Shown here piece by piece: positions 1 to 17,603 of a stretch of 21,078 nt of DNA (the stretch's first letter is position 1; the number at the start of each line of letters is the position of its first letter). The notes under the pieces were generated by a model, which had not been told where the DNA came from, ran no database searches, and was given only the letters and a program-made list of their open reading frames with translations. The translations under genes and the position numbers were made by a program. Location: the UHGV virus genome UHGV-0370164; one strand, given 5' to 3'. The stretch comes from a virus.

Positions 1-116
1 TGCGGCGTTCTTACAGTGTAAGCAGTAAGGAAACCGCGACGGGGGAGCAATCCCCCGTCAATCGGTTGCTAAGGTTGGCTGAAGTGGCACCCTATCTCAC
101 AGACATGAACAACAAA

Positions 117-148
117 CCCGCAGCGTAAGAACTGCGGGTTTTCTTTTT
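117..148 (+). terminator. Intrinsic terminator-like hairpin with U-tract
   Basis: CCCGCAG (117-123) / CTGCGGG (132-138) stem followed by TTTTCTTTTT. A perfect 9-bp hairpin with GCAA loop lies upstream at 38-59. Confidence 0.5.
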
Positions 149-216
149 GGAACAATCACTAGCTAGTGTACCGTTAACGGCACATAATGCTCGCACAACA
201 AACCTGTTAAAAGAGA

Positions 217-498
217 TTACTCAGCATTCTCCTGCTTCCATTGCCGGATCATTTCATCGGTAACATCACCCTCATAACATACCACGTCATACCCTCCATT
301 ACGGCTATATGCACTGCGTCCACCACATCTACTACCATTCCTTGCATGATTATAAGGACACGCACAATTGCCAGGATAAGATTCAATGGATTCTTTAATT
401 ATTTCTTTTTTGATCTGAGCATCAGACTTTCCTGTTGCTGCATATCCACTAAAAGATACTAAACAAAGGCAGATTGCCATTAATAAACCACATCGCAT
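217..498 (-). CDS. Small secreted cysteine-containing protein, unknown function
   Basis: ORF-track frame 217..612; start placed at internal Met (MRCGLLMAICLCLVSFSGYAA...), which reads as a signal peptide; mature part has CxCPY...RCGG...C pattern. AT-rich. Start codon uncertain (alternative Met at 480). Confidence 0.45.
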   Translation of the reverse strand: MRCGLLMAICLCLVSFSGYAATGKSDAQIKKEIIKESIESYPGNCACPYNHARNGSRCGGRSAYSRNGGYDVVCYEGDVTDEMIRQWKQENAE

Positions 499-963
499 AC
501 CGATACACTCTATTACTAACCAATCATAGCCCACATCATAAAATCGAGATGAGGAGTACAATACCTTTAACAAGAAGGTGTCATAACGATAATATGTCGT
601 GCAATTCATCAAAAAAAAGATCTATATCAAAGAGATAGAACTCTTATCAGCGCTTCAGACATCGGCATTCGAGGCAGCAGAAAAACAGTAAATCTGACGA
701 ATTTGCCTTTTCCCAAGATGTTGTCAGATTAAAAAGATAGATTAGCGCAGGTACCTGTTGGTGGATTGCAGGAGGAAAAATGAAGTCGAGTGAAAAAATC
801 CCAGAAAAATTTTTGTTTAACAGAGGTCCTGGTTCACTATGCGAAATACGGAGGAGCTGCAGAAGAATTCTGCTTCATCCTTAGAGTTTAAACAGCACGT
901 GCACTACCATTGTTTCTGCATATCGCCACACCATCGCCACTCTACCGCCATTGCACAAAATAC

Positions 964-992
964 AAATACGAAAAAACCACCCGAAGGTGGTT
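964..992 (-). terminator. Intrinsic terminator downstream of the tRNA fragment
   Basis: AACCACC / GGTGGTT stem with CGAA loop; on the minus strand it is followed by TTTTTCGTATTT. It sits about 45 nt 3' of the tRNA fragment, as expected for a native tRNA terminator. Confidence 0.5.
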
Positions 993-1036
993 TCACGACA
1001 CTGCTTATTGCTTTGATTTTATTCTTATCTTTCCCA

Positions 1037-1091
1037 TGGTACCCGGAGCGGGACTTGAACCCGCACAGCGCGAACGCCGAGGGATTTTAAA
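1037..1091 (-). other. Attachment-site core: 3' 55-nt fragment of a tRNA-Leu(UAA)-like gene (partial, no 5' half)
   Basis: Reverse complement reads TTTAAAATCCCTCGGCGTTCGCGCTGTGCGGGTTCAAGTCCCGCTCCGGGTACCA: anticodon loop, long variable arm, T-arm and CCA end of a class II tRNA. Sequence 5' of it (1092-1125) is not tRNA-like. Confidence 0.7.
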
Positions 1092-1197
1092 AACTATCAA
1101 CCACCATTTATAAATCATAACCTTATGATTTTATTAACTTTGAAAATGGCTCTATACAACGCCATTTAAATCTATTGTCACTTTTTATCGCCACTTT

Positions 1198-2199
1198 TTA
1201 CCCTCTATTGTCAAAAGGGTTCAATTCAACAGCAGCCTCTAAATGACCTGGAGCAAAATGCGCATAACGCATAGTCATTTTTATATCGCTATGCCCCAGT
1301 ATTTTTTGCAACACAAGAATATTTCCGCCCCGCATCATAAAATGACTGGCAAACGTGTGACGTAGCACATGAGTTAATTGCCCATCAGGAAGCTCGATCT
1401 TCGCTCTCTTAATTGCAGCGTCAAAAGCCTCATAACATGGTGAAAATAGCGCTCCTCGTTTTTGAGGAAGCATAGCCTGCAATTGAGGTGAAATCGGTAC
1501 AGTGCGGTTCTTCTTTCCTTTAGTTTTAACAAATGTGATTCGACCGGGCAGTACTTGAGATTGCTTTAATCCTTCAGCTTCACTCCACCGAGCACCAGTC
1601 GCAAGCCCAATACGGACAACAACCCCCAAATCTTTATTCCGTGACTCATCACACGCAATCAGAAGGCGTTCAATCTCATCTACATACAGAAACGCCAGTT
1701 CCTTTTCTTCCTCACGAAACTTGCGAATACCAGTCAGGGGGTTTTCACCAGACCACTCCCCAAGGCGCTTCAGTTCGGCAAAAACAGCATGTAGATATGA
1801 CTGCTCGCGATTAACGGTTGCTTCACTAAGTTTTTTCTTCCCCTTGGGATTCCATTCTCCTGATAGCCTTCTTTCCCGATAAGTAGCAAACATATTTTTG
1901 TCAAACTGAGAAGCAAATGGATCCCCCAGCCTGGAACAAATCGCCTCAAGTTTGACTTTGCGCTCTGCACCAGAGGACAAGGTTTTACCGTACATCTCAA
2001 ACCAACGAGCAATCAACTCAGAAAGACGAGGACCAGAACCATCTTGAAACTCGTCTCCAACTCTACTATTCATTAAACGGCGCTCATAAGAGAGCGCCTC
2101 ACTTTTTGTCGCAAACTGTTTACGAATGCGTTTTCCCGATGCCCCGTAGGGATAACATTCGCAAAGCCATTTACCTGATGGAATCTTACGAACCGACAT
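1198..2199 (-). CDS. int: Tyrosine recombinase, P2-type phage integrase
   Basis: 333 aa; C-terminal catalytic region (ARWSEA..., HVLRHTFASHFMMRGGNILVLQKILGHSDIKMTMRYAHF) matches the P2 Int family as recalled; adjacent to the att core. Confidence 0.95.
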   Translation of the reverse strand: MSVRKIPSGKWLCECYPYGASGKRIRKQFATKSEALSYERRLMNSRVGDEFQDGSGPRLSELIARWFEMYGKTLSSGAERKVKLEAICSRLGDPFASQFDKNMFATYRERRLSGEWNPKGKKKLSEATVNREQSYLHAVFAELKRLGEWSGENPLTGIRKFREEEKELAFLYVDEIERLLIACDESRNKDLGVVVRIGLATGARWSEAEGLKQSQVLPGRITFVKTKGKKNRTVPISPQLQAMLPQKRGALFSPCYEAFDAAIKRAKIELPDGQLTHVLRHTFASHFMMRGGNILVLQKILGHSDIKMTMRYAHFAPGHLEAAVELNPFDNRG

Positions 2200-2204
2200 T
2201 TTAG

Positions 2205-2552
2205 TTACTTATCACATAAATCAAATGCAGCCTTAGTGACATCCCCCAGACTCTTTTTTAACCCTGGGGCGGCATCATTATCTAGCCAAAATGGATTATT
2301 GTTATCTAACGGTAACGCACCAAATGTTTTACCTTTTATTCGAGCTAAACCTGTAAGCGCATATAACTTATTATCGTCAAAATTCATCACATAAGGATTA
2401 CCATCAAGACACTGTAATTGAACCTCATCAGTATTAAATGGCCATACCCCATTGAAACTCTCACGTTCAATAGTTTTAAAAGGCATTGCGACGGCGGAAA
2501 AAGAAAACATAGATAAAAAAGTAACTAATAGTTGAACCTTTTTTACTTTCAT
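2205..2552 (-). CDS. Secreted/periplasmic protein, unknown function (lysogeny-operon cargo)
   Basis: 115 aa; N-terminal signal peptide (MKVKKVQLLVTFLSMFSFSAVA); GAGGT Shine-Dalgarno 8 nt upstream; ends 5 nt before int start; AT-rich. Confidence 0.7.
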   Translation of the reverse strand: MKVKKVQLLVTFLSMFSFSAVAMPFKTIERESFNGVWPFNTDEVQLQCLDGNPYVMNFDDNKLYALTGLARIKGKTFGALPLDNNNPFWLDNDAAPGLKKSLGDVTKAAFDLCDK

Positions 2553-2581
2553 ATCATTACCTCAATTTAGCTCAAGTAAGA

Positions 2582-3232
2582 TTACAAATTAAAAAACACC
2601 CTAGAAATGGCACCGCCTACCAAAACCCCTACGCAGATAAAGAATATTATTTCTTTTGGATAAAGTCGGATTAATTCTGAAGCACGAAGTCGAACTTCTG
2701 GTAAGGCCGAACTCTCTGTGTGACTTGATGCCGATTGTTGCTCTAACCACGACAATGCAGACTGTAACTGAGAACGAGTAAGATCGTTTAAACGTCCTGT
2801 ACCGAAATTGATATGGCAATACCGCAGAAGTTTTTGTCGAAGTCCACAGTCTTCACTGTTACGTAGTAATAAACTTACAAGAGTCTTACAGGCATCATGA
2901 TCTTTACATCGCTCAAGCATTGCATGCAGAAAACTCTCCGCTGTTTTATATTGATTTACTGTCATATCATCAATACCAGCTACACCAATCTCCGCATGTA
3001 CTTTTTGCCAAATAATAAACGCTTCAGTATTGCTAGCTTCTGCAATAGCAGCAACCAAGCTATTTAGCTCCTTACGCTGAGCCTTAAGCAAAGGGCGATC
3101 GTCATCATCATTATTCGAAGGGATTGCGATATTGACGGTATGAGAACCATCATATCGCTCTATCTGAATATTCTTTTCGTGAAAATCACGCCCAGCAACG
3201 CGATTGTTTGAACCGTTTGAGTTGACGGCCAT
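2582..3232 (-). CDS. Membrane-anchored protein, unknown function (lysogeny-operon cargo)
   Basis: 216 aa; strong GGGAGGTG Shine-Dalgarno 6 nt upstream, immediately after the repressor stop; C-terminal hydrophobic helix (IIFFICVGVLVGGAISRVFF); N-terminus carries an NNRVAGRDF motif. Confidence 0.7.
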   Translation of the reverse strand: MAVNSNGSNNRVAGRDFHEKNIQIERYDGSHTVNIAIPSNNDDDDRPLLKAQRKELNSLVAAIAEASNTEAFIIWQKVHAEIGVAGIDDMTVNQYKTAESFLHAMLERCKDHDACKTLVSLLLRNSEDCGLRQKLLRYCHINFGTGRLNDLTRSQLQSALSWLEQQSASSHTESSALPEVRLRASELIRLYPKEIIFFICVGVLVGGAISRVFFNL

Positions 3233-3247
3233 GTCACCTCCCTACTA

Positions 3248-3652
3248 TCACCTACCCTTAGTTTCGTTATAGTCACGACCAGCGATACGGTTATTACCAC
3301 CAGAAATATTTAACTCACGTCCTGATGGCTGAGTTTCCTTTTCACTGATCGCACCTTTTAAAGCCCCGATCACCGCGTTTTTCACATCTAACGAAGCTGC
3401 TCGAAAGCGAGTAATCAACTCCTGCTCATCATCGTTATAAGTTTCAGGTGAGTGAATTCCCAACACAACATACTGAACATCAAGGCCAAAACGAGACAGC
3501 GCTGCCAAATACGCAGCATCAGGAAAGCTATCTCCTTTCTCATATCTAAGCTGAGTTAGCTTTTTGACTCCACCAATGTCGCTCATGGCAACTTGACTAA
3601 GTCCCAATCTTTCCCTTTCCTCACGCAACCGCTGACCAATATCATTTTTCAT
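3248..3652 (-). CDS. HTH (XRE-family) immunity repressor, C/cI-like
   Basis: 134 aa; N-terminal helix-turn-helix (LREERERLGLSQVAMSDIGGV...); transcribed divergently from the early operon and upstream of int, as in P2/186. Confidence 0.85.
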   Translation of the reverse strand: MKNDIGQRLREERERLGLSQVAMSDIGGVKKLTQLRYEKGDSFPDAAYLAALSRFGLDVQYVVLGIHSPETYNDDEQELITRFRAASLDVKNAVIGALKGAISEKETQPSGRELNISGGNNRIAGRDYNETKGR

Positions 3653-3727
3653 ACAAAAACCTTGACAGGTATCTTTTTTGATACCAAAATGATTTCACGA
3701 GCTATTAGATGATCACAATATACCACT
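3653..3727. promoter_or_regulatory. Lysis/lysogeny switch region: divergent promoters with operator palindrome
   Basis: TTGACA (3662-3667), 17-nt spacer, CAAAAT (3685-3690) on the plus strand; perfect inverted repeat GGTATC-N6-GATACC (3668-3685) sits in the spacer. Confidence 0.55.
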
Positions 3728-3934
3728 ATGAAACAAGTTCTTCACGATACCAGATCACGCATTCCGCGTAACACCGCCACAGGTCCAAGACTGGCACTTC
3801 GGCTGTCCCTCGAGGAGCGAGCCGTCATTGATGAAATGGCAGCTAAAGAACAACGCTCATCCTCTAACATGGCGCGCATGATCTTCCTTCGCGGCCTAGA
3901 GCTAACCCAGAAAGAACAAAACAAATCTTCCTGA
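3728..3934 (+). CDS. Small ribbon-helix-helix-like regulator (Cro-like position)
   Basis: 68 aa; RLALRLSLEERAVIDEMAAKEQRS-SNMARMIFLRGLE reads as strand-helix-helix; first gene of the rightward operon. No clear Shine-Dalgarno. Confidence 0.55.
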   Translation: MKQVLHDTRSRIPRNTATGPRLALRLSLEERAVIDEMAAKEQRSSSNMARMIFLRGLELTQKEQNKSS

Positions 3935-3950
3935 TCAGGAGGCTAGTGGG

Positions 3951-4154
3951 ATGTCAGGTATAACCATCAATATCAATGTGAATGCCCCCTATGTATCCCT
4001 GCAGAAATATGCAGAGATAACAGGTATCCCTCTTAATACATGCAAAAAGATGTTGGCTGACGGTCGAATTATTATCCGCCCCAAACGCGCCAAAATGGAA
4101 AAGCCTGAAGTAAACCTTGTGGCGATGTTAAAAGACGCTTTGGCTAACAGCTAA
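3951..4154 (+). CDS. Cox/Apl-like HTH excisionase-regulator
   Basis: 67 aa; AGGAGG Shine-Dalgarno; HTH-like segment VSLQKYAEITGIPLNTCKKMLADGRI; position matches cox/apl of P2/186. Confidence 0.65.
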   Translation: MSGITININVNAPYVSLQKYAEITGIPLNTCKKMLADGRIIIRPKRAKMEKPEVNLVAMLKDALANS

Positions 4155-4175
4155 AACAATGAACAGAGCATCATC

Positions 4176-4526
4176 ATGAAAAAAAACACTAATAATCCAT
4201 ACTCCAAATTTCGTAATGGCGTAGAACGCCATGTACACCACGTCGCTACCAGTGCATCACGTAGTAACAGCCGCTATAACCTGAACGAGACGCACGCAAC
4301 ACCAGATGGGCACGCTGTAAAACAAATCGGCGAACACACCTGGCTGATTGAGAAAGCTGGAATCGTGGTTCACAGATGCCCACACAATCCGTTTACCGGA
4401 AACCGCATTTTTGCATTAAGCAGCGGCGATAATCAGTTCGGGCAGGATTTCACATTGTACGAAGCACTACGCACAGTCGATCGTCTGCTTCGCGGGCAAA
4501 GTTTTATTAAACAGGCTGCTTTATAA
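4176..4526 (+). CDS. Hypothetical early protein
   Basis: 116-aa ORF in the rightward early operon; no recognisable motif. Confidence 0.5.
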   Translation: MKKNTNNPYSKFRNGVERHVHHVATSASRSNSRYNLNETHATPDGHAVKQIGEHTWLIEKAGIVVHRCPHNPFTGNRIFALSSGDNQFGQDFTLYEALRTVDRLLRGQSFIKQAAL

Positions 4527-4536
4527 CAGGTGCTTT

Positions 4537-4815
4537 ATGACTAAAGACCATGCACAAGGTGTATTTATCCGCTTTATTGATTTTCGCGGTGAACTGTTAT
4601 TACGCGCATCAGCTATTGACGGAGTAGTTCCATCTGAAAAAAACGCAGCTACCTACGTTTATCTGAACGGTACACGCCTGACTGTAGAGCTTCCGTACCA
4701 GATCATTCGCGAAATAATTAGCGAAGCCGAAAAATCTCGTCAGGTTAATGGCGATGAACCCTATATCGAGATTATCTGCATGGATTCAGAAGCTGAAATT
4801 CAGAAAGCAGATTAA
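4537..4815 (+). CDS. Hypothetical early protein
   Basis: 92-aa ORF, same strand and tight spacing as neighbours. Confidence 0.5.
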   Translation: MTKDHAQGVFIRFIDFRGELLLRASAIDGVVPSEKNAATYVYLNGTRLTVELPYQIIREIISEAEKSRQVNGDEPYIEIICMDSEAEIQKAD

Positions 4816-4826
4816 AGGGTGTTGCG

Positions 4827-5069
4827 ATGGATAAAGAATATAAAACTCTCATCAACAAAGCACTTGAGCGTTTTTATTTTCGTTTAAGCGCATCCGGCGC
4901 TCATTCAGAACGTGCAGCCCGTGACTCATTGACCAGGGCTATCCGGAGTCTGTATGACGTAGCTTTTTACGCTGACGATCTGGATGCACTTAATGAACTT
5001 TCTGAGCTTATCTGCGCCGCAGAATGCGGGGAGCATATTGAGCCGTACAAACTGGGAAATATCGCATGA
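4827..5069 (+). CDS. Hypothetical early protein
   Basis: 80-aa ORF; AAGGG upstream of ATG. Confidence 0.5.
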   Translation: MDKEYKTLINKALERFYFRLSASGAHSERAARDSLTRAIRSLYDVAFYADDLDALNELSELICAAECGEHIEPYKLGNIA

Positions 5070-5179
5070 GTATATTTATATCCTGGATTGTTCTTATTAT
5101 TTCGGTGGTTTGTGCAATTGGTATTATGCGAATTATTAATTCAGTAAAAAAGATTGAACGCTTTTTCACTGGCGAATAA
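5066..5179 (+). CDS. Small hydrophobic peptide (37 aa), putative membrane protein
   Basis: Not in the ORF track. ATG at 5066 overlaps the previous stop (ATGA); translation MSIFISWIVLIISVVCAIGIMRIINSVKKIERFFTGE is one transmembrane helix plus a basic tail. Confidence 0.3.
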   Translation: MSIFISWIVLIISVVCAIGIMRIINSVKKIERFFTGE

Positions 5180-5265
5180 CCGCATAAATAAAACCCCAGC
5201 TTAAATAAAAAAATGTGAACACAATCTGCATTCGCAGAGGTATTCACACACACCAAGGAGGCGTA

Positions 5266-5469
5266 ATGGCAATTAAGCATTTTCCTGTCGTTCGTTTCAC
5301 CTCCAGAGGACGTGAATACGAAGTCGACGAACGTCTGATTACCACAATCGACAAACACCGCTCAGAAAAGGATGCACACCACATCTATCTCACTGACGGC
5401 ACTTACTTTTGCGCCACTAATGTGGCGCGGGTGAATCTTATCCGACAGGTACAGGATCCACGCAAATGA
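5266..5469 (+). CDS. Hypothetical early protein
   Basis: Internal ATG of ORF 5215..5469 preceded by AAGGAGG; 67 aa (MAIKHFPVVRF...). Confidence 0.55.
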   Translation: MAIKHFPVVRFTSRGREYEVDERLITTIDKHRSEKDAHHIYLTDGTYFCATNVARVNLIRQVQDPRK

Positions 5470-5684
5470 GTAGGAGAAGAATCACTCGCAGACATCACCG
5501 AACACACCTGAGTTCCTCAGCAACGCTAAAGGCACTTATTCAAAGCGAGATCGGTGATTTCTTCGCGGGAGTTGGCTCACCAGGCGAACCAGAAACACCA
5601 GAAGCGATGCAGCGTGAGCTCATGATACGCATAGATAACACTTTTGATTTCTTCTACAGCATGCACGGAATTAAACAGAAATGA
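5466..5684 (+). CDS. Hypothetical early protein
   Basis: 72-aa ORF; ATGA start/stop overlap with the upstream gene. Confidence 0.5.
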   Translation: MSRRRITRRHHRTHLSSSATLKALIQSEIGDFFAGVGSPGEPETPEAMQRELMIRIDNTFDFFYSMHGIKQK

Positions 5685-5792
5685 ACCTCAAGCCAGCAAT
5701 AACTACTCGTAGAACGTCAATTCCTGTAACCGACCGCTTCTGAGTTTTTTGGCAGGAAGCCTTCGCACATCTGTAGTAAAGAGAATTGCAGC

Positions 5793-6182
5793 ATGATTGA
5801 CGCTCATGACTTCACAAGATGGGTGCGCACACAGGACACCCGTCTGGCTCCCGTTCTTCAGGGATTATTTGATCTCTACATCCGTGGTCGTGACAACAGA
5901 GCACGCACCACAAAACCGGAGAATGCAGACACCCTTTATTTCACAGTAGACGACTGCTACCGCGTGGACTTCACACCACACGGGCTGGCGTTGCACTGCC
6001 TGACACCACACGGCGAATCACTGCTGGCGTATTACGACTCCCCGGCCTCCATATTTGCGGCAATGCTGGCGCATCGCACTGCTGGCGGGTGTGCCTCGCT
6101 GAGTGAATACTCCGCTGAATTTAACCGCCTTTCCGCCCTCTTCTCACAGGAGTGGCAGCGCGTGACGGGATACCAGCCATGA
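5793..6182 (+). CDS. Hypothetical early protein upstream of gpA
   Basis: 129-aa ORF; its stop overlaps the gpA start (ATGA at 6179-6182). Confidence 0.55.
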   Translation: MIDAHDFTRWVRTQDTRLAPVLQGLFDLYIRGRDNRARTTKPENADTLYFTVDDCYRVDFTPHGLALHCLTPHGESLLAYYDSPASIFAAMLAHRTAGGCASLSEYSAEFNRLSALFSQEWQRVTGYQP

Positions 6183-9019
6183 GTGCGTTTGCATGGAGCT
6201 GGAATGAACCACGGCCAGCCATTGATCCGGCCAGATTTACGGAGCGCAGGCAGGAAACTGAAACCGACCTGCAACGCGCCATCCGTTACTACCTTGAGGC
6301 AAACAAAAGGGCACAGGAAGAACAGGAAGCGAAGGAAGAAGCCTTTTTCGCACAATCCACCGTGGGTAAAAAACTCATGGCATCCCTTGAGGAAGCCGGA
6401 CAGCGTGAAAAGCTGGCACAAAGCATCATCAGCAAGCGTCAGGCAACAGAACAAGACCCGGTGGCCCGTGCTTTTGCCACACTGAAGGTGCTTCCCGTTT
6501 ATCTGCGTGAACCTCTGAGCCGCCACCTCTCTTTTCTGCGCAAGAAGCAGGAAGCCGATCGTCAGAAAGGCAAAAAGAGCTGGCAGGCTGAACGCTACGC
6601 GCGCGGAACCCTGCGCAAAATATTCGAACGTCTGGACCGCACCGACAGCCGCTGGCTGACACCGGGCTATCGCTCCCTTGCCGGACGCGAACGCCTGGAC
6701 GATTTGCTTTACCTGCCGCAGCTCAACAAACACCAGATACAGACGCTGGCCACCATGACGGCGGCGATGTTCAGTGGCACTTTTGAAAAACTCTGCGATG
6801 GCTTTGGCGCGACCGATGGCGAGCTGACCATGGATGTAACGCTGAAGGCGTATCAGATGCTGGCCCGCATGGCGTTACACCTGCACGCTATGCCTCCACA
6901 TTATGACGCTCTGACAACAGACAAAGACCGGAGGAATGAACCGGACACGGAGCTGCTGCCGGGCGCAATCCTTCGCCTGACCTGTGCGGAATGGTGGAAA
7001 CGCAAACTGTGGCTGTTACGTTGCGAGTGGAGAGAAGAACAACTCCGCGCCGCCTGTCTGGTTTCCAGAAAAACATCACCCTATCTGAGCCAGGACGCGT
7101 TAAGCGAGTTTCGCGCACAGCGCGAGAAAACACGCGATTTCCTGAAAAGTTTCATGCTGGAAAACGAAGACGGGTTCACGATTGATCTCGAGACAGTGTA
7201 TTACGCGGGAGTAAGTAACCCGATTCACCGTAAGGCAGAAATGATGGCCACCATGAAGGGGCTGGAACTTCTGGCCGAAGCCCGTGGCGACAGAGCGGTG
7301 TTTCTGACTGTCACCTGCCCGTCAAAATACCACGCCACAACAGAGAACGGTCATCCGAATCCCAAATGGAACGGGGCCACCATGCGCGACTCCAGCGATT
7401 ACCTGGTTAACACGTTTTTTGCGGCGGTCCGCAAGAAACTGAACCGCGACGGCCTGCGCTGGTATGGCATCCGCACGGTGGAGCCTCACCATGACGGCAC
7501 CGTGCACTGGCATATGATGGTCTTTGCTCATCCGGAAGAAATCGACACCATTGTGTCCCACACCCGCGATATTGCCATTCAGGAAGACCGCCACGAGCTG
7601 GGCAATGATATTACTCCGCGCTTTAAGGTGGAGTATGTCGACGGCTCAAAAGGCACGCCAACCAGCTACATCGCCACCTACATCGGAAAGAACCTGGACA
7701 GCCGCGCCGTGGATGGCATCGACCCGAAAACGGGCAAGCCACGCGTTGACCACGAAACCGGAAAATCAATGGCCGAGAGCGTGGAACGCGCCATCGGCTG
7801 GGCACGCCTTCACCGGGTCCGCCAGTTCCAGTTCTTTGGCATCCCCTCCCGTCAGGTATGGCGTGAACTCCGCCGCCTTGCCAGCCAGATGGCACGCAAC
7901 CCGGAAGGCCCACAACGGCTGAAGGATGATGCAATGGATGCGGTACTCGCTGCCGCTGATGCCGGATGTTTTGCCACCTACATTGAAAAACAGGGTGGCG
8001 TACTTGTTCCGCGCAAGGACTACCTGATTCGCACAGCCTACGACCTCGCAGATGAGCTGAACGATTACGGCGAACAGAGTGTACAGATTTACGGGATCTG
8101 GTCGCCATTCATCGGGGAATCCTCCCGTGTGTGCACGCATCCGGATAACTGGAAGCTGGTAAGACGTAAACCGGAAGCGGAAGACAGCGCCCGCGAAAAT
8201 GGTTTTGACCTTCAGGGCGGCCCTGCCGCCCCTTGGACTCGTGGCAATAACTGTCCCCGTGTACAGGAAACAGGCAACAACGGGACAGAACAGCCGGAAG
8301 AACGGCCAGCACCGTGGCCGCAGCTTCCTGACGGCGTTGAAGTAAATGAATGGATGCGCTCACTGAAACGGCACGAACGCCGGGCGCTGATGCGTTCGCT
8401 TCGTGACAAACAGGCAAAAAACAGCAGCGATGAAATGCAGAACTGGACACAGAGCCGCAAACAGCAGCGGCCTTTGCCTGATAACCACGAGTTACTCGCT
8501 AAAGAATGGCGGGAGTCTGCTGAATCTCTCGGCCTGCATATCGGTGAACAACAGATGCAGCACCTGTTACGGGGCGGCAGTCTGTACGTTGACGGCAGCA
8601 TCATTGCACCGCAGGGATTTGAAATTGTACGCAAACCGGATACCCGCCCGGACAGCCGAATCACGCAGCTCTGGCAGCGTCTGAGCCGTAATCATGGCGT
8701 AAGCAGCACGGAGATCCGCCATAACCCGGTCGCCAGCTATCTGGCACAGCTGGGGGCATCAGACCCTGAAGCCGCCGCACGCCTGGCATCCACACTTCAG
8801 CAGGACCAGAACACCATGAAAACACCCGTTACCGTGCTTTCTGACATGCTGCGCGCCATCCGCGACGCAGAGCACGCACAGAGAATCAGTGAAACCACTG
8901 AACGCGCCAGCCGCAAAGCAGACCTGCTGCGGGGTGGCCTGACCAGTGGAAACAAAAAACAGACAGAAACGGGACTCACGAATCCCGTAAATGAGCAAAA
9001 AACGCGCAGCGATATATGA
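6179..9019 (+). CDS. Rolling-circle replication initiator, P2 gpA-like
   Basis: 946 aa from the ATG at 6179; HUH-type motif (GTVHWHMMVF) and paired tyrosines (TSYIATYIGKN) typical of the gpA family; Q/R-rich C-terminal tail. Confidence 0.85.
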   Translation: MSAFAWSWNEPRPAIDPARFTERRQETETDLQRAIRYYLEANKRAQEEQEAKEEAFFAQSTVGKKLMASLEEAGQREKLAQSIISKRQATEQDPVARAFATLKVLPVYLREPLSRHLSFLRKKQEADRQKGKKSWQAERYARGTLRKIFERLDRTDSRWLTPGYRSLAGRERLDDLLYLPQLNKHQIQTLATMTAAMFSGTFEKLCDGFGATDGELTMDVTLKAYQMLARMALHLHAMPPHYDALTTDKDRRNEPDTELLPGAILRLTCAEWWKRKLWLLRCEWREEQLRAACLVSRKTSPYLSQDALSEFRAQREKTRDFLKSFMLENEDGFTIDLETVYYAGVSNPIHRKAEMMATMKGLELLAEARGDRAVFLTVTCPSKYHATTENGHPNPKWNGATMRDSSDYLVNTFFAAVRKKLNRDGLRWYGIRTVEPHHDGTVHWHMMVFAHPEEIDTIVSHTRDIAIQEDRHELGNDITPRFKVEYVDGSKGTPTSYIATYIGKNLDSRAVDGIDPKTGKPRVDHETGKSMAESVERAIGWARLHRVRQFQFFGIPSRQVWRELRRLASQMARNPEGPQRLKDDAMDAVLAAADAGCFATYIEKQGGVLVPRKDYLIRTAYDLADELNDYGEQSVQIYGIWSPFIGESSRVCTHPDNWKLVRRKPEAEDSARENGFDLQGGPAAPWTRGNNCPRVQETGNNGTEQPEERPAPWPQLPDGVEVNEWMRSLKRHERRALMRSLRDKQAKNSSDEMQNWTQSRKQQRPLPDNHELLAKEWRESAESLGLHIGEQQMQHLLRGGSLYVDGSIIAPQGFEIVRKPDTRPDSRITQLWQRLSRNHGVSSTEIRHNPVASYLAQLGASDPEAAARLASTLQQDQNTMKTPVTVLSDMLRAIRDAEHAQRISETTERASRKADLLRGGLTSGNKKQTETGLTNPVNEQKTRSDI

Positions 9020-9061
9020 AGCGCGCACAAAACAGGCAAAAACGGGATTTCAGAATCCCGT
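8969..9061. promoter_or_regulatory. Paired 20-bp palindromes flanking the gpA stop; candidate parC-like centromere/operator
   Basis: ACGGGACT-CACG-AATCCCGT (8969-8988) and ACGGGATT-TCAG-AATCCCGT (9042-9061), 73 bp apart, each in a similar ~28-bp context, directly upstream of parM. Confidence 0.4.
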
Positions 9062-9095
9062 AAACGATTAATTAATCAACATAAGGAAAACCGAC

Positions 9096-10055
9096 ATGAA
9101 AATTTACATCGACGACGGCTCCACCAACATCAAGCTGGCATGGACTGAGAACGGCGAACGCCGCAACGCCATCAGCCCGAACAGCTTCAAGTCGGAATGG
9201 TCTGCGCCGTTCGGTGGCTCGCAGCCTGCTAACTACATGCTTGATGGCGTGCGCTATGGTTTTGATCCGGTCAGCGATCGCTTTGTCCAGACGACCGACA
9301 CGCAATACCAGTACAGCGATGTGAATGTCATTGCCATTCATCACGCGCTGGTCAAATCAGACATCACGCCACAGGAAGTGGATGTGGTTGTTACCCTGCC
9401 ACTGAGCGAATATTTCGACACAAACGCACAGCCGGACATGGCCAACATCAACCGCAAAAAAGCGAACGTCATGCGCCCGGTGGAGTACCAGAACGGCGAA
9501 GCATTCACTATCCGTAACGTACGGGTTATGCCTGAATCCATTCCGGCTGGCTTTAAAGCACTGGCTGACATGAGTCCGTTTGAATCCCTGCTGATTGTGG
9601 ATTTGGGCGGAACCACGCTGGATGTGGCAAAGGTTCAGGGGCAACTGGCAGGTATCAGCCAGGTGTTTTGCGATCCACACGTAGGCGTTTCTCTTATGGC
9701 CGATGCCGTACTGTCGGTGATGGCCACTAACGGTATGCGCACCAGTCACCACATCGCCAATACCATTATCGAACATCGCCATAATGAAGCCTGGCTGCGC
9801 CAGCACATCCACAATGACGCGCATTACGCCAGCCTGATGGCGGTTATTCGTGAAAAGGAAGAAACACTGAAACAACGCGTGATCCGCGCGCTGGCGGTTT
9901 TTTCGGGTTACGGGCGGGTGATGGTTGTCGGTGGCGGGGCGGAGATTGTGGCACCCGCTATCCGCGAAGCCTGCGGAGTTAATGCGACTTTCATCGCGGA
10001 CGGGGTGCCACAGTTTGCTCTGGTTAATGGGCTGTACGCAATGGACAAGGAGTAA
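9096..10055 (+). CDS. parM: ParM/StbA-family actin-like partition ATPase
   Basis: 319 aa; matches plasmid R1 ParM as recalled along its length (IDDGSTNIKL, ISPNSFK, YSDVNV, VMPESIPAG, DLGGTTLD, GVSL, GGGAE, LVNG); AAGGAAAA Shine-Dalgarno. Confidence 0.9.
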   Translation: MKIYIDDGSTNIKLAWTENGERRNAISPNSFKSEWSAPFGGSQPANYMLDGVRYGFDPVSDRFVQTTDTQYQYSDVNVIAIHHALVKSDITPQEVDVVVTLPLSEYFDTNAQPDMANINRKKANVMRPVEYQNGEAFTIRNVRVMPESIPAGFKALADMSPFESLLIVDLGGTTLDVAKVQGQLAGISQVFCDPHVGVSLMADAVLSVMATNGMRTSHHIANTIIEHRHNEAWLRQHIHNDAHYASLMAVIREKEETLKQRVIRALAVFSGYGRVMVVGGGAEIVAPAIREACGVNATFIADGVPQFALVNGLYAMDKE

Positions 10056-10059
10056 ACCA

Positions 10060-10371
10060 ATGACGACACCAACCAGACGGATAAGTTTCTATCTGAAGCC
10101 CGCCGCCGTCAAGAACGAAGGAGAAGCATGCGCCTGGCTGGACAGCCTTACACCAGAAGCCCGCAAAAGCGGCCAACGCGTGGCTTTTCTGGCCGGGCTG
10201 GCACTTCTGAAGACGAATCCGGCAGAGGCTTACCGACTGGCCGCATGGGCTGATGATGAGATGTTACCTGTGACACAAATCAGCTCAAAAAAGTTTGAAG
10301 CACAGTCTGCACCAGTGGCTAAGATAACCAGCCAGATGGCTGGGAATATCCGGGCGTTATTTCCTGAGTAA
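10060..10371 (+). CDS. parR: ParR-like partition adaptor/repressor
   Basis: 103 aa from the ATG 4 nt after the parM stop; N-terminal RRISFYLKP...AC.WLDSL...ER...LAGLAL and C-terminal IRALFPE resemble R1 ParR as recalled. Confidence 0.8.
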   Translation: MTTPTRRISFYLKPAAVKNEGEACAWLDSLTPEARKSGQRVAFLAGLALLKTNPAEAYRLAAWADDEMLPVTQISSKKFEAQSAPVAKITSQMAGNIRALFPE

Positions 10372-10499
10372 AAGCATCTGCGCGAAAAATGCTCACGTTT
10401 ATAGAGACAGTATCATTCCATTTGGCACACTTACTTCAATAATCGATCTGTTAAACAAATAGATTGTCTATTATCTATCGATTAAAACGATCAATTATC

Positions 10500-10527
10500 T
10501 TGACAGTAATGTGCCTTTTTGTAAGAT
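10500..10527 (+). promoter_or_regulatory. Near-consensus sigma70 promoter
   Basis: TTGACA (10500-10505), 16-nt spacer, TAAGAT (10522-10527); imperfect palindrome AATAGAT...ATCTAT just upstream. Confidence 0.45.
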
Positions 10528-10633
10528 CGTTCGCATTGTGAGCGACAAGATAATTGCGCGGCATTGTCCATGCAAAACGCCCCAATAGCAGCAACTATTG
10601 GGGCGTAAAACTCGGTCGGACTCACTTAACCTG

Positions 10634-10719
10634 ATATGCGTGCCTTCCGAAGTAAATCAAAATGTGCGTCGTATATTTTATTGCTTACACGCACCTCTGT
10701 AAAGGCACGCATATTTTTC
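10634..10719 (+). terminator. Large stem-loop with U5 tract in the leader (attenuator/terminator or small RNA 3' end)
   Basis: Perfect 13-bp inverted repeat ATATGCGTGCCTT (10634-10646) / AAGGCACGCATAT (10702-10714) enclosing an inner GTGCGT/ACGCAC hairpin, followed by TTTTT (10715-10719). A 12-bp-stem hairpin lies at 10577-10606. Confidence 0.4.
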
Positions 10720-10735
10720 CTATGAGGTAAATAAA

Positions 10736-11005
10736 GTGCGGGCTAAAACAGGTATTTGCAAGAACCCTCATCGTTATAATCCAACATTTCTGTCTCTCCC
10801 TGAATATCAAGGACAAGAAGGTCGGCACAAATGCGCTGCCTGTGCTTTTGAGCTAGGCATAAAAGATGCGCTTGAAGGACGCGCTATGGCTCAGAATGAT
10901 TTAGTTTTAGCTAACATTCCGTTTAGCCAGGCTGGAACTGTAAGGCACAGAGATGCCTATGAAGCATATGTTCGTGGTTGGCGATTAATAAACAGCAACA
11001 ATTGA
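10736..11005 (+). CDS. Small Cys/His-containing protein, unknown function
   Basis: 89 aa; GTG start with GAGG Shine-Dalgarno 8 nt upstream; CKNPH...HKCAAC suggests metal binding; followed by a terminator. Confidence 0.5.
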   Translation: MRAKTGICKNPHRYNPTFLSLPEYQGQEGRHKCAACAFELGIKDALEGRAMAQNDLVLANIPFSQAGTVRHRDAYEAYVRGWRLINSNN

Positions 11006-11014
11006 TACTTTTGA

Positions 11015-11037
11015 AGCGCCGATAAGGCGCTTTTTTT
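11015..11037 (+). terminator. Intrinsic terminator
   Basis: AGCGCC / GGCGCT stem with GATAA loop followed by TTTTTTT, 10 nt after the stop at 11005. Confidence 0.7.
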
Positions 11038-11490
11038 GTTTGCACGATAGTGCACAAGTTTGCACAATTTTTTTGAACGACTTTTTGTACTTCCGGCCCG
11101 CGTGGTGGCTGGATCCGTCAAGGATCCGTACGTGCACAAAAAAACGCGTTTTTTCTGCGCGCAGGTGACGGGGGAACAGCCCGCGTTTCAGGGGGTAAAT
11201 AGCATCCCCTGAACGATGTCGCAGCGACACAACAGAATGGCTGTATTTCTCACGCTGAGCGTGAAAAAGACGTGAGGGCTTTTGATTTGATGGGTGGCAG
11301 ATAAGGCCGTCAAAATCGCACTGAGGCGGCGAGAACATGCAGTCAACGCGGTGGGATTGCGTAAGAGTCTGACCGCCGATGATGACAATAAGCAGAAAAG
11401 CGTCGTGAAATTATCTGATTGATACAGGAGCTGGAGAGTCGGGGCATAAATTTTTTATGCCCCGGCGAAGCAGCAGACAAGCGAAGCGCG

Positions 11491-12537
11491 TCAGGATGTG
11501 GGCTGGGTATCTAGCAGTGCGTAAGGGTTAAAGCGGATCACCTCTTCGCCAAGCCAGTCATTGATGTGCTTCATGGCCTCCATGACGGGCATCAGCTCGT
11601 TAATTGCGTAAACCCGCGCGGCCTTCTCCACATCACCAAACGCACTTTTTTCGCCCGGCATCGCCCCCATCAGTTGCGGCGGAACGCGGTGCGCAGCCAG
11701 CACATCATCACGGGATGCCGCCTTAACATTCATGAACTCATCCTTTGCAGTGATCTGCTGGAACGGCAAAATTTGCACACCTTCTTTGCCCCCGTTGGGC
11801 GCATGGATGAGTACGTTTTTAAACGCACCACCACCACGCGCGCCCTGTAACGTTTCTTTCAGGGAGTCCATGCTTTCGCGGTTTACCTGCGCTGCACCGA
11901 TGTAGATGATGCACCCGGCGTGGGATCCGTTGTCGTAGTACAGTTTTCTGAACATGTCCGCCGAATGAGAAAGGCTGGCCGAGAGTAATGCGCCAAGATA
12001 TTCCGGCATGCCGTAGATTTCCTGGTTAATATCCGGATTCATCAGGTGGCACACTTTGCCAGGGCGAAACTGGAACGCGTCCTTGCCATCCTGCACATAC
12101 CACCATGATTCAAGATCGCTTCCGCGTCGCATGTATTTCGCCAGGGCGTGCCGTAATTTAAGCGGTTCGCCGAGCATATTGCTTCTAAGCTCAAGGAATG
12201 CGTTACCGAACACAAACCAGTCCAGCGCCAGCGCCGAGAAATCCTGCCGGGAAAGCAGCGGGTGCGGGATGTAGCAACCGAGTAATACATTGCGCTTAAA
12301 GTAAAGCGCAGACTGATGCCAGGACGTTTGCCGGGCTGCTCTTGCCAGACCGTACCAGTCCACCGGGGTTTCATACCACCGTCCGTTATCAGCACAGTAC
12401 ATATTGTCCAGCAGGTCATGCCCGGTCAGGCGATAAGGACCATCAAATGTGAATGCACTGAGCGATGATTCTTTCCTGAGCGCATCAGCGAGATCAATGC
12501 GTGAACTCATGCGCACTTTTTTATTTTTTCTGCTCAT
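11491..12537 (-). CDS. Portal protein, P2 gpQ-like
   Basis: 348 aa, right size for P2 Q; directly downstream of and overlapping the terminase gene on the same strand. Called from context and size. Confidence 0.85.
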   Translation of the reverse strand: MSRKNKKVRMSSRIDLADALRKESSLSAFTFDGPYRLTGHDLLDNMYCADNGRWYETPVDWYGLARAARQTSWHQSALYFKRNVLLGCYIPHPLLSRQDFSALALDWFVFGNAFLELRSNMLGEPLKLRHALAKYMRRGSDLESWWYVQDGKDAFQFRPGKVCHLMNPDINQEIYGMPEYLGALLSASLSHSADMFRKLYYDNGSHAGCIIYIGAAQVNRESMDSLKETLQGARGGGAFKNVLIHAPNGGKEGVQILPFQQITAKDEFMNVKAASRDDVLAAHRVPPQLMGAMPGEKSAFGDVEKAARVYAINELMPVMEAMKHINDWLGEEVIRFNPYALLDTQPTS

Positions 12538-14847: not shown

Positions 14848-14849
14848 GC

Positions 14850-17560: not shown

Positions 17561-17564
17561 AGAG

Positions 17565-17598: not shown

Positions 17599-17603
17599 GT
17601 ACT

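What the first reader, a model, noticed from the sequence alone, without database searches (positions are those of the whole stretch)
2205..3652. Two uncharacterised cargo genes in the repressor-integrase lysogeny operon
Between the immunity repressor and int, on the same strand and with their own strong ribosome-binding sites, lie a 216-aa C-terminally membrane-anchored protein and a 115-aa signal-peptide protein. P2 has int and C adjacent. Genes co-transcribed with a prophage repressor are expressed in lysogens and are classic positions for superinfection-exclusion or abortive-infection functions (lambda rexAB is the precedent). Neither protein has a motif I recognise.
Basis: partly seen in the sequence, partly recalled or inferred. 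Interest (0 to 1): 0.65.

Follow-up and report, generated by a model that had tools for sequence, protein, structure and literature searches.

The report
Phage repressor with membrane-anchored partner protein
Of the two "cargo" genes next to this prophage's repressor, only the small secreted one is swappable cargo; the membrane-anchored one is a conserved partner of the repressor, and the two carry matching, co-evolving end-tails, which points to an undescribed way of controlling phage dormancy.

Summary
The two ORFs are real: 216 aa (3232..2582) and 115 aa (2552..2205). They lie on the minus strand between an XRE-type repressor (3652..3248) and int (2199..1198) of a P2-like prophage.

Both have family assignments.
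- ORF115 is a signal-peptide DUF2511/YebY-MlbQ protein.
- ORF216 has a Flk_N domain (homologous to the flagellar regulator Flk) and a C-terminal membrane anchor.

About 90 related loci were compared.
- The slot just upstream of int is variable, with at least 8 unrelated cargos or none. ORF115 is therefore a genuine moron.
- ORF216 is not cargo. It follows the repressor in the P2-like and Mu-like prophages and lies beside it in a Ralstonia phage.

The repressor's C-terminal tail and ORF216's N-terminal tail share a roughly 17-aa G/V/N/Q-rich motif.
- The motif co-varies across 13 lineages (statistics on 12: cognate score 48 vs 27 non-cognate, permutation p about 5e-6).
- Codons differ, so gene conversion does not explain it.
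- The tail tracks the partner protein, not the HTH domain.

Best reading: a two-gene immunity module in which a membrane-tethered protein binds or competes with the repressor through the matched tails. The interaction is inferred, not shown. I found no paper describing it. The rexAB-like "pair" idea is not supported.

The parts
3248..3652 (-). XRE-family HTH immunity repressor, 134 aa. It has an N-terminal HTH, a C-terminal helix and a disordered C-tail.
   Evidence: Pfam HTH_31/HTH_3 and PHROG repressor families. It is divergent from the Arc-like and Cox-like genes. Homologues are listed.
3251..3313 (-). Repressor C-terminal tail, residues 114-134: LNISGGNNRIAGRDYNE followed by the basic end TKGR. 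This is the matched motif.
2582..3232 (-). ORF216, a Flk_N-family tail-anchored inner-membrane protein and conserved partner of the repressor.
   Evidence: NCBIfam Flk E 9e-16. PF27202 Flk_N. hhalign against Flk gives 97.7% probability. phrog_5825.
3176..3226 (-). ORF216 N-tail motif, residues 3-19: VNSNGSNNRVAGRDFHE. It lies within a disordered N-tail (residues 1-41, nt 3110-3232).
   Evidence: Alignment A1. AF2 pLDDT is below 50 for residues 1-41. The HMM and regex scans find the motif only here and in the repressor.
2723..3097 (-). Flk_N helical domain of ORF216, residues 46-170, six helices.
2585..2683 (-). C-terminal hydrophobic helix (membrane tail anchor) of ORF216, residues 184-216.
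   Evidence: AF2 helices 184-190 and 192-214. The hydrophobic C-terminus is conserved across the family.
2205..2552 (-). ORF115, a secreted periplasmic DUF2511/YebY-MlbQ family protein. This is the variable cargo (moron). The signal peptide is residues 1-22 (nt 2487-2552). Cys48 and Cys113 are invariant.
   Evidence: Pfam PF10709. PDB YebY 7n0j, E 0.003. Alignment A4. The top Foldseek hit is MlbQ 2mvo, TM 0.59. The slot is variable.
1198..2199 (-). Tyrosine integrase, the last gene of the operon. Its start lies 5 nt after the ORF115 stop.
   Evidence: Pfam Int_N and Phage_integrase.
3662..3690 (+). Early-promoter-like site (TTGACA-17-CAAAAT) for the Arc-like/Cox-like operon. A perfect palindrome, GGTATCTTTTTTGATACC (3668-3685), sits in its spacer and is a likely repressor operator.
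1037..1091 (.). attP core, identical to the 3' 55 nt of the host tRNA-Leu.
   Evidence: ARAGORN finds no complete tRNA in the window.
973..994 (-). Terminator-like hairpin followed by a T-run, downstream of int and beyond attP.

Best explanation
The interval is the lysogenic operon of a P2-like prophage: repressor, ORF216, ORF115, int.

ORF216 is a core component, not cargo. It is a cytoplasm-facing, C-terminally anchored inner-membrane protein. It has a Flk_N helical domain and a disordered N-terminal tail. Together with the XRE-type repressor it forms a conserved two-gene module.

The repressor ends in a disordered tail. That tail carries the same roughly 17-residue G/V/N/Q-rich motif as ORF216's N-tail, followed by a basic end.

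Most likely the two proteins contact each other through these tails. The contact could be tail-to-tail beta pairing, or both tails could compete for one site on the Flk_N domain. Either way, part of the repressor pool would be tethered or titrated at the membrane, and the lysis-lysogeny switch would be coupled to the state of the membrane protein.

What is shown: gene linkage, homology, topology, matched tails, and co-variation of the tails. What is inferred: physical binding and its regulatory consequence.

ORF115 is separate. It is a swappable moron in the slot just upstream of int, and it encodes a periplasmic disulfide-bonded YebY/MlbQ-fold protein made in lysogens. It probably binds a ligand or an inner-membrane protein from the periplasmic side. 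Its function is unknown.
For: Linkage
- In the roughly 90 P2-like loci from Escherichia, Klebsiella, Serratia, Erwinia, Mixta and others, the order is HTH repressor, Flk_N protein, variable slot, int.
- Distant Flk_N relatives in Mu-like prophages (with rve transposase, Mu gp27, DUF2730) and in other P2-like prophages also have an HTH repressor gene upstream on the same strand. It is directly adjacent except in L098, where an 88-aa ORF intervenes.

Matched tails
- The motif is present in all pairs.
- For 12 independent pairs, the local BLOSUM62 score between the repressor's last 40 aa and the partner's first 40 aa averages 48.4 for cognate pairs and 27.2 for non-cognate pairs.
- Shuffled tails score 19.4 +/- 4.2 in the 11-pair analysis. 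The permutation p is about 5e-6.
- Only 51 of 106 identical residues use the same codon, and nucleotide identity is 0.55. Selection is therefore on the protein, not gene conversion.

Modularity
- The Pectobacterium Mu-like repressor (L109) is 58% identical to the window repressor overall. Its tail QIFNGDISGQFAGNQIIN nevertheless matches its own partner's QEFNGTAQGQFSSRDIIN.
- L102 does the same with a Klebsiella-type HTH.
- In Ralstonia phage the two genes are convergent, yet the tails still match: NNVQIGSV against GNVQIGKV.

Domain and topology
- hhalign against Flk gives 97.7% probability, E 2e-12.
- AF2 shows a disordered N-tail, a six-helix domain and a C-terminal helix.
- Weak profile links connect it to the C-terminal regions of antirepressors.
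- Some relatives add a periplasmic domain after the TM helix, giving an anti-sigma-like architecture.
- The motif occurs in no other protein of the window.

ORF115 as cargo. PMC8689200 had already noted yebY homologues lying between a recombinase gene and a CI-like repressor gene.
Against: - No interaction has been measured or modelled.
- The AF2 monomer leaves the N-tail unstructured and undocked.
- The fold matches to peptide-binding bundles are generic three-helix hits with low identity.
- Co-expression with the repressor from one operon means ORF216 cannot be a simple constitutive antirepressor. A signal or stoichiometric logic is needed and is unknown.
- The 12 pairs fall into a few motif classes, so the effective sample size is smaller than 12.
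- ORF216 is under weaker constraint (omega 0.37-0.51) than its neighbours.
- I did not locate the repressor's own promoter.
Confidence: 0.5

Rival explanations
1. ORF216 and ORF115 are accessory superinfection-exclusion or abortive-infection genes riding in the repressor operon, in the way rexAB does in lambda, possibly working as a pair.
For: Both genes lie on the repressor's strand with short gaps and no internal terminator. One product is membrane-bound and the other periplasmic, which are typical locations for exclusion proteins. The int-proximal slot is a cargo hotspot. A minor defence hotspot between int and the primase of P2-like phages is reported in PMC13586616.
Against: The pair is not conserved. 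ORF216 homologues sit next to at least 8 different cargos, or none. ORF216 is invariably linked to the repressor, not to the cargo, and the tail match is unexplained by an exclusion role. Neither protein hits a PADLOC model. There is no homology to RexA/B, Sie, Cor or Old/Tin-type proteins.
Confidence: 0.15
2. The matched tails are degrons for one host protease, such as ClpXP, FtsH or Lon. ORF216 would then be a membrane-tethered decoy or competitor that stabilises the repressor, in the way lambda CIII protects CII. Alternatively it could be an adaptor that delivers the repressor for degradation.
For: Both tails are disordered termini. Repressor tails end in a basic cluster such as NKK, KKK or KGR, which recalls the basic C-terminal ClpX signal of MuA (my own knowledge, not tested here). 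A membrane protein with a free cytoplasmic N-tail of about 40 aa is a typical FtsH substrate (my own knowledge).
Against: A host-protease signal should be shared among phages of one host group. Instead, several very different tail types occur within Enterobacterales, and each matches its own partner. ORF216's copy of the motif lacks the basic end.
Confidence: 0.15
3. The repressor and ORF216 form an addiction (toxin-antitoxin-like) pair. ORF216 would be a membrane-active toxin held in check by the repressor's tail, and it would be released when the repressor is lost.
For: The order, an HTH-XRE protein upstream of a small partner, is common in type II TA operons, and antitoxins neutralise toxins with disordered C-tails (established knowledge). 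The repressor gives weak hits to MqsA/HipB-type antitoxin HTH models.
Against: Those HTH hits are generic. ORF216 has a single tail anchor and a large soluble domain homologous to the non-toxic regulator Flk. The Ralstonia homologue has no TM segment at all. The gene sits in the immunity position, facing an operator in the early promoter.
Confidence: 0.08
4. ORF216 is a phage copy of Flk that acts on the host flagellar type III export gate, so that lysogeny changes motility.
For: It has a homologous Flk_N domain and the same tail-anchored topology. Flk holds the export apparatus in early mode and was tested for interaction with FlhA_C (PMC13344023).
Against: Identity to Flk is only 22%, and ORF216 has one unit where Flk has two. 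Close homologues are abundant in Klebsiella prophages, and Klebsiella is generally non-flagellated (my own knowledge). The N-tail that matches the repressor is absent from Flk.
Confidence: 0.05

Closest known systems
Flk (Fluke/RflH), the flagellar export-switch regulator of Salmonella and E. coli
   Same: It shares a homologous Flk_N helical domain (hhalign 97.7%, residues 39-167 against Flk 23-151; NCBIfam E 9e-16). It is also a cytoplasmic protein held at the inner membrane by a single C-terminal anchor (PMC13344023).
   Different: ORF216 is 216 aa against about 333. It has one Flk_N unit rather than two. It is prophage-encoded and linked to a repressor. It carries an N-terminal tail motif that Flk lacks. 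It occurs in hosts without flagella.
Amyloid signalling motif pairs in adjacent genes: fungal HET-S/NWD2, bacterial BASS with Bell/NLR proteins, and E. coli Bab/Agp
   Same: The genomic signature is the same. A short (about 17-25 aa) G/N/Q/V/I-rich motif sits at the C-terminus of one protein and the N-terminus of the protein encoded next door. It is similar within a pair and diverse between pairs (10.1101/2020.01.06.895854; 10.1101/2024.11.07.622273). The Ralstonia pair even carries a VQIG core like RHIM/BASS3.
   Different: The partner domains are a DNA-binding repressor and a Flk_N membrane protein, not an NLR or sensor plus a pore-forming effector. The commonest variant, NRxAGRD[YF]xE, is rich in charged residues. 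Fibril formation and templating have not been tested.
Membrane sequestration of transcription factors: anti-sigma factors with ECF sigma factors, and Mlc with PtsG
   Same: A single-pass membrane protein has a cytoplasmic domain and is encoded beside the regulator it is proposed to hold. Some relatives have a periplasmic domain after the TM helix.
   Different: There is no sequence or fold relationship to these proteins. The target is a phage repressor. Recognition appears to use mirrored terminal tails.
Phage antirepressors: P22 Ant, 186 Tum, Gifsy antirepressors, and ORF6C/KilAC C-terminal domains
   Same: Weak profile and fold links connect the Flk_N helical region to the C-terminal regions of Ant/Rha/KilA-N regulators. 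The proposed target is the immunity repressor.
   Different: ORF216 is co-transcribed with the repressor instead of being under LexA or lytic control. It is membrane-anchored. The similarity is below family thresholds.
YebY (E. coli yobA-yebZ-yebY operon) and MlbQ (lantibiotic self-resistance lipoprotein), both DUF2511
   Same: ORF115 matches PF10709 above the cut-off. It has a signal peptide and the same Cys48-Cys113 pair that forms the YebY disulfide (PMC8689200). Its model superposes best on MlbQ.
   Different: It is not in a copper operon. It is prophage-borne, in a cargo slot next to int. Identity to YebY is low (E 0.003). It belongs to a small phage-specific clade of 18 clusters.
Lambda rexAB and other morons expressed from the lysogenic promoter
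   Same: The genes are downstream of the repressor on the same strand. ORF115's slot varies between related phages.
   Different: There is no homology. ORF216 is conserved, not accessory. The two genes do not travel together.

Membership tests
Flk (flagella biosynthesis regulator, NCBIfam PRK10715 equivalog) | Flk_N domain | tested here: met
   NCBIfam E 9e-16 over residues 37-166. PF27202 Flk_N is precomputed for the homologues. hhalign 97.7%.
Flk (flagella biosynthesis regulator, NCBIfam PRK10715 equivalog) | Full-length equivalog score and architecture: about 333 aa with two tandem units | tested here: not met
   58 bits against a curated cut-off of 353. ORF216 is 216 aa with a single unit, whereas Flk proteins give two matched stretches.
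Flk (flagella biosynthesis regulator, NCBIfam PRK10715 equivalog) | C-terminal single membrane anchor with a cytoplasmic body | tested here: met
   Hydrophobic C-terminus, with AF2 helices at 184-190 and 192-214. Orientation is inferred by analogy with Flk (PMC13344023).
Flk (flagella biosynthesis regulator, NCBIfam PRK10715 equivalog) | Controls the flagellar type III secretion specificity switch | not testable with these tools
   This needs genetics. Its abundance in Klebsiella prophages argues against it.
DUF2511 / YebY (Pfam PF10709) | Profile match above the gathering score | tested here: met
   28.4 bits against 21, residues 28-113 covering profile positions 2-87 of 87.
DUF2511 / YebY (Pfam PF10709) | Exported protein with two conserved cysteines that form the stabilising disulfide | tested here: met
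   The signal peptide ends in SAVA|M. Cys48 and Cys113 are invariant in 15 homologues. The same positions form the disulfide in YebY (PMC8689200). Bond formation itself was not tested.
DUF2511 / YebY (Pfam PF10709) | YebY/MlbQ fold | tested here: inconclusive
   The AF2 model is of low confidence (pLDDT 59.9). Even so, the only meaningful Foldseek hit is MlbQ 2mvo, TM 0.59, probability 1.00, E 0.026.
DUF2511 / YebY (Pfam PF10709) | Membership of a yobA-yebZ-yebY (CopC/CopD) copper operon, as for the YebY orthologue | tested here: not met
   The neighbours are a Flk_N gene and int.
Moron / variable cargo of a prophage hotspot | Presence or absence, and replacement by unrelated genes, at the same position in related phages | tested here: met
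   This holds for ORF115. The slot holds YebY-like, BRCT-containing, acidic 81-108 aa, Zn-finger plus TM coiled-coil, and other secreted or membrane proteins, or no ORF.
Moron / variable cargo of a prophage hotspot | The same test applied to ORF216 | tested here: not met
   An ORF216 homologue is present directly after the repressor in every related P2-like locus.
Known anti-phage defence systems (PADLOC-DB v2) | Match to any model of a known or candidate system | tested here: not met
   No hit at E <= 1 for ORF115 or ORF216.
Amyloid signalling motif pair (BASS/FASS type) | A short motif at the C-terminus of one protein and the N-terminus of the adjacent gene's product, similar within a pair and diverse between pairs | tested here: met
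   13 lineages. Cognate score 48.4 against 27.2 non-cognate, p about 5e-6 on 12 pairs.
Amyloid signalling motif pair (BASS/FASS type) | Composition rich in G, N, Q and beta-branched residues, with few prolines | tested here: met
   G 15.5, V 13.3, N 10.8, Q 8.2, I 7.7 and P 1.1 per cent. The main variant also has R, D and E.
Amyloid signalling motif pair (BASS/FASS type) | Forms cross-beta fibrils and templates the partner motif | not testable with these tools
   This needs peptides, ThT or EM assays, and in-cell foci assays.
Amyloid signalling motif pair (BASS/FASS type) | Links a sensor (NLR-like) to a cell-death effector (Bell/HeLo-like) | tested here: not met
   The partners are an XRE repressor and a Flk_N protein.

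The most novel reading that the evidence does not exclude
The mirrored tails are a functional beta-templating motif, amyloid-signalling-like. When the membrane-anchored Flk_N protein oligomerises or is triggered, its N-tails would nucleate co-assembly with the repressor's C-tails. That would pull the repressor out of solution in a cooperative, possibly self-propagating way. A prion-like switch would then control prophage maintenance or induction in P2-like and Mu-like phages. A corollary is that the host flagellar regulator Flk may be a domesticated copy of this phage protein that has lost the tail.
Probability: 0.15. Interest if true: 0.9.

Novelty: new variant of a known kind. Interest (0 to 1): 0.66.

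Why it matters
How these P2-like and Mu-like prophages, whose XRE-type repressors show no recognisable self-cleavage (peptidase) domain, sense when to leave lysogeny is not established.

A conserved membrane-anchored partner points to a direct line from the cell envelope to the genetic switch. That partner is encoded next to the repressor in two phage groups with different life cycles, and it is tied to the repressor by a co-evolving mirrored tail. The idea can be tested at once with tail deletions and tail swaps.

The work also gives a first functional context for the Flk_N domain outside flagella. It extends the "matching terminal motifs in adjacent genes" signature, so far linked to cell-death immunity, to transcriptional control.

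For annotation, it separates a core gene (ORF216) from a real cargo slot just upstream of int. That slot holds many uncharacterised lysogen-expressed genes, including BRCT-domain proteins.

The module is common. Most of the queried region is present in 516 of 5426 (about 9.5%) complete E. coli genomes, including O26 and O103 STEC strains.

Tried and rejected
Searches and computations that led nowhere
- Structure prediction of a repressor+ORF216 chain. 
- The afdb50 fold library was unavailable.
- A locus scan with an alignment of distant family members failed, because no stretch was conserved enough. Single-protein scans of viral contigs gave one locus and none.
- PADLOC gave nothing for either protein.
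- Rfam gave nothing in window positions 1-6000 at E <= 0.1.
- ARAGORN found no complete tRNA.
- Literature searches found no description of the module. The terms covered Flk with prophage, membrane-anchored antirepressors, and Xuanwuvirus/P88.
- A search of solved structures by sequence gave only noise for ORF216.
- The AF2 model of ORF115 was poor, pLDDT 59.9.
- The promoter scan did not find the repressor's own promoter.

Ideas considered and rejected
- A repressor-ORF216 fusion or read-through product. The genes are in frame in many loci but are always separated by stop codons, and the gap is not always a multiple of three.
- Gene conversion as the cause of the tail similarity. Codons differ.
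- A DNA-level or RNA-level repeat as the reason for the similarity. The differences fall largely on synonymous codon positions.
Full report
**Observation**

The window carries a P2-like phage genome.
- It is 98% identical to Escherichia phage 520873 (Peduoviridae, Xuanwuvirus).
- Window positions 1100-4200 are 100% identical to a prophage beside yecA in E. coli O26:H11 11368 and many O26/O103 strains. Most of that stretch is present in 516 of 5426 complete E. coli genomes.

Four genes follow each other on the minus strand:
- an XRE-type HTH repressor (3652..3248, 134 aa)
- ORF216 (3232..2582)
- ORF115 (2552..2205)
- a tyrosine integrase (2199..1198)

The gaps between them are 15, 29 and 5 nt. 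ORF216 and ORF115 have good ribosome-binding sites, and no terminator-like site lies inside the operon.

Across a 75-nt gap, an Arc-like gene and a Cox-like gene are transcribed divergently. Their promoter-like site (3662-3690) contains a perfect palindrome, GGTATCTTTTTTGATACC, in its spacer. That fits a repressor operator.

The stated interval also includes the repressor gene.

**What the two proteins are**

Both proteins have one.

ORF115
- It matches Pfam DUF2511/YebY above the gathering score (28.4 against 21 bits).
- It matches the solved YebY structure 7n0j by sequence (E 0.003).
- It has a signal peptide ending SAVA|M, and two invariant cysteines at positions 48 and 113. The same positions form the disulfide in periplasmic YebY (PMC8689200).
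- Its AF2 model is of low confidence. Even so, the only meaningful structural match is the family member MlbQ.
- YebY itself is a periplasmic protein that dampens copper import by the inner-membrane protein YebZ (PMC11923076). MlbQ is a lantibiotic self-resistance protein.
- The phage-type clade is small: 18 clusters.

ORF216
- It matches the flagellar regulator Flk (NCBIfam E 9e-16, residues 37-166).
- Its homologues carry the precomputed domain PF27202 Flk_N.
- A profile-profile comparison with true Flk proteins gives 97.7% probability and 22% identity.
- AF2 predicts a disordered N-tail (residues 1-41), a six-helix domain (46-170, pLDDT about 80-88) and a C-terminal hydrophobic helix (184-214). 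Flk has the same tail-anchored topology (PMC13344023).
- An exhaustive profile search found only 136 clusters among 1.84 billion representative proteins. Three kinds stand out: tail-anchored forms of about 190-216 aa, true Flk proteins (320-430 aa, with two units), and a few proteins with antirepressor-type N-terminal domains.

**Cargo or core**

I collected about 90 related loci from genomes and viral contigs. In each I located the homologues of the four genes.

The order was always repressor, Flk_N protein, a gap of about 320-1900 nt, then int. The gap holds at least eight unrelated contents:
- the YebY-like gene
- a BRCT(+WYL-like) protein of 288-295 aa
- a 292-298 aa protein with a C-terminal BRCT domain
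- an acidic 81-108 aa protein
- a Zn-finger protein paired with a TM coiled-coil protein
- a 244-aa membrane protein
- signal-peptide proteins of 137 or 201 aa
- no ORF at all

E. coli relatives with 94-95% identical repressor and integrase carry the acidic protein instead of ORF115.

ORF115 is therefore a true moron in a cargo slot. This fits the minor defence hotspot "between integrase and primase" reported for P2-like phages (PMC13586616). It also fits an earlier remark that yebY homologues lie between a recombinase gene and a CI-like repressor gene (PMC8689200).

ORF216 is never absent and never replaced. The two genes are not a conserved pair.

**The matched tails**

The repressor ends with ...LNISGGNNRIAGRDYNETKGR. 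ORF216 begins MAVNSNGSNNRVAGRDFHEKNIQI.

The resemblance is present in every P2-like locus. In the window's six-frame translation the motif occurs in these two proteins only.

Distant Flk_N proteins sit beside an XRE-type repressor gene, and the motif changes in both partners together:
- The genes are co-oriented in the Mu-like prophages (with rve transposase, Mu gp27, DUF2730), in other P2-like prophages and in short metagenomic contigs of unknown type.
- L098 has an 88-aa ORF between the two genes.
- In a Ralstonia Aresaunavirus the two genes are convergent.

| Locus | Repressor C-tail | Flk_N N-tail |
|---|---|---|
| L097 | QQFNGPVGTVTTGDVVN | QQFHGAVEQVAAGDIKN |
| L101 | QVFHGKVGQSIAGNV | QVFREDVGQAVAGDL |
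| L104 | QVFNAEVGQAIRAKTLKQ | QEFNEPVGQVIQAETVTQ |
| L109 | QIFNGDISGQFAGNQIIN | QEFNGTAQGQFSSRDIIN |
| L111 | NNVQIGSV | GNVQIGKV |

Statistics:
- For 12 pairs, the local alignment score between the repressor's last 40 residues and the partner's first 40 averages 48.4 for cognate pairs and 27.2 for non-cognate pairs. The permutation p is about 5e-6.
- In the 11-pair analysis, shuffled tails score 19.4 +/- 4.2.
- If the two copies had diverged independently after one old duplication, cognate and non-cognate pairs would be equally similar. The excess therefore indicates co-evolution.
- It is not gene conversion. Only 51 of 106 identical residues use the same codon, and nucleotide identity over the motif is 0.55.

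The tail is also modular.
- The L109 repressor is 58% identical to the window repressor overall, yet its tail is of a different type and matches its own partner.
- L102 does the same with a Klebsiella-type HTH.
- Some repressor relatives of 118-120 aa lack the tail altogether.
- Repressor tails nearly always end in a basic cluster.

**Mechanism**

Shown:
- the two-gene linkage across two phage groups
- the Flk_N homology and the tail-anchor topology
- disordered termini carrying a shared motif
- co-variation of that motif under protein-level selection

Inferred: the two proteins recognise each other through these tails, or the tails compete for one site, and this tethers or titrates the repressor at the inner membrane.

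Supporting hints:
- There are weak sequence and fold links to the C-terminal regions of antirepressors and ORF6C-domain proteins.
- Some relatives carry a periplasmic domain after the TM helix, which gives an anti-sigma-like layout.

Because ORF216 is co-transcribed with the repressor, it cannot be a plain constitutive inhibitor. A trigger or a stoichiometric role is needed, and I cannot name it. I give this mechanism a confidence of 0.5.

**Rivals**

- rexAB-like exclusion pair. The pair is not conserved, and no defence model matches. An exclusion or conversion role for ORF115 alone stays open.
- Shared degron or decoy for a host protease. This is plausible given the disordered termini and basic ends. 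However, several tail types coexist within Enterobacterales, and each matches its own partner.
- Toxin-antitoxin-like addiction. This is unlikely for a homologue of Flk, and the Ralstonia form has no TM segment.
- Flk mimic acting on flagella. Identity is low. Homologues are abundant in Klebsiella prophages. The tail match would be left unexplained.

**Comparison with known systems and novelty**

The domain is Flk-like, but ORF216 fails the Flk equivalog test on score, length, unit number and context.

The motif arrangement is the defining signature of amyloid signalling pairs. That signature is a short motif at the C-terminus of one protein and the N-terminus of the protein encoded next door, alike within a pair and diverse between pairs. 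Examples are BASS motifs with Bell/NLR proteins and E. coli Bab/Agp.
- The composition fits: G, V, N, Q and I make up 55% of the motif, with almost no proline.
- The Ralstonia pair has a VQIG core like RHIM/BASS3.
- The partner domains are quite different from those systems, the main variant is rich in charged residues, and templating is untested.

I therefore keep this as the most novel reading that the evidence does not exclude (probability 0.15).

I found no paper describing a repressor/Flk_N module. The classifications are:
- repressor/ORF216 module: a new variant of a known kind, namely a repressor-partner module
- ORF115: a new member of a known family in a known type of hotspot

**Limits**

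- No interaction could be modelled.
- The 12 pairs fall into a few motif classes.
- The repressor's own promoter was not located.
- Expression in lysogens is inferred from gene order alone.

Noticed in passing
window 1-1091, with the attP core at 1037-1091: The first 1091 nt match the opposite (right) end of the same prophage in O26 genomes. They cover the tail end of a Hok/Gef gene, a small hypothetical gene, and then 55 nt identical to the 3' part of tRNA-Leu. The window is therefore in the joined (attP, excised or circular) configuration rather than the integrated one.
   Followed up: partly
window 973-994 (-): A terminator-like hairpin downstream of int lies beyond the attP core. On integration it would be separated from the repressor-int operon. 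This recalls lambda sib retroregulation of int.
   Followed up: no
window 9096-10371 (+): Plasmid-type partition genes, ParM/StbA (319 aa) and a StbB-like stability protein, sit between the replication gene gpA and the portal gene, in the main P2 cargo hotspot. This is unusual for an integrating phage.
   Followed up: no
window about 14432-14850: The terminase gene (12537-14432, -) is followed almost directly by a tail-fibre gene (14850-16982, +). The 16.9-kb stretch 4200-21078 aligns to a 24.6-kb span in related prophages, in 3 pieces. About 7.7 kb (capsid, lysis and baseplate genes) therefore seems to be missing, and the element may be defective.
   Followed up: partly
window 17604-18209 (-): A low-GC (0.34-0.35) gene for a 201-aa protein with a weak hexapeptide-repeat (acyltransferase-like) match lies between the tail-fibre assembly gene and gpU. 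It is probably another moron.
   Followed up: no
window 217-612 (-): A small Cys-rich ORF with a hydrophobic N-terminus (phrog_27544, annotated as a 93-aa hypothetical protein in RefSeq) lies between ogr/hok and attP.
   Followed up: no
proteins P0164-P0246 (true Flk), alignment A5: Chromosomal Flk proteins contain two tandem Flk_N-like units and lack the N-tail motif. The phage forms are spread across more lineages. Flk may be a domesticated phage gene.
   Followed up: partly
L111 (Ralstonia phage YO077_2) 2399-2977 (+) and 3258-3935 (-): Here the Flk_N homologue has no membrane anchor and is convergent with the repressor gene. A 117-aa Zn-ribbon membrane protein lies between them. The tails still match and share NVQIG, a RHIM-like core.
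   Followed up: partly
L102 452-1441, L104 2501-3259, L105 2501-3358: In L102 and in the Mu-like prophages L104 and L105, the Flk_N protein continues past its TM helix into an extra domain of 45-110 aa (Cys-rich in L104 and L105). This gives a sensor-like bitopic architecture.
   Followed up: no
L003 6647-7513, L063 5661-6539 and other loci: Alternative cargos in the int-proximal slot include two kinds of BRCT-domain protein. One has a weak WYL-like middle region. The other gives a weak match to the candidate defence model PDC-S48.
   Followed up: partly
L002 (NC_049344, phage 520873) 2039-3081: In the deposited phage record the ORF216 and ORF115 region is unannotated. ORF216 aligns there only in 3 pieces, and int is split in two, which suggests frameshifts or sequencing errors in that record.
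   Followed up: no
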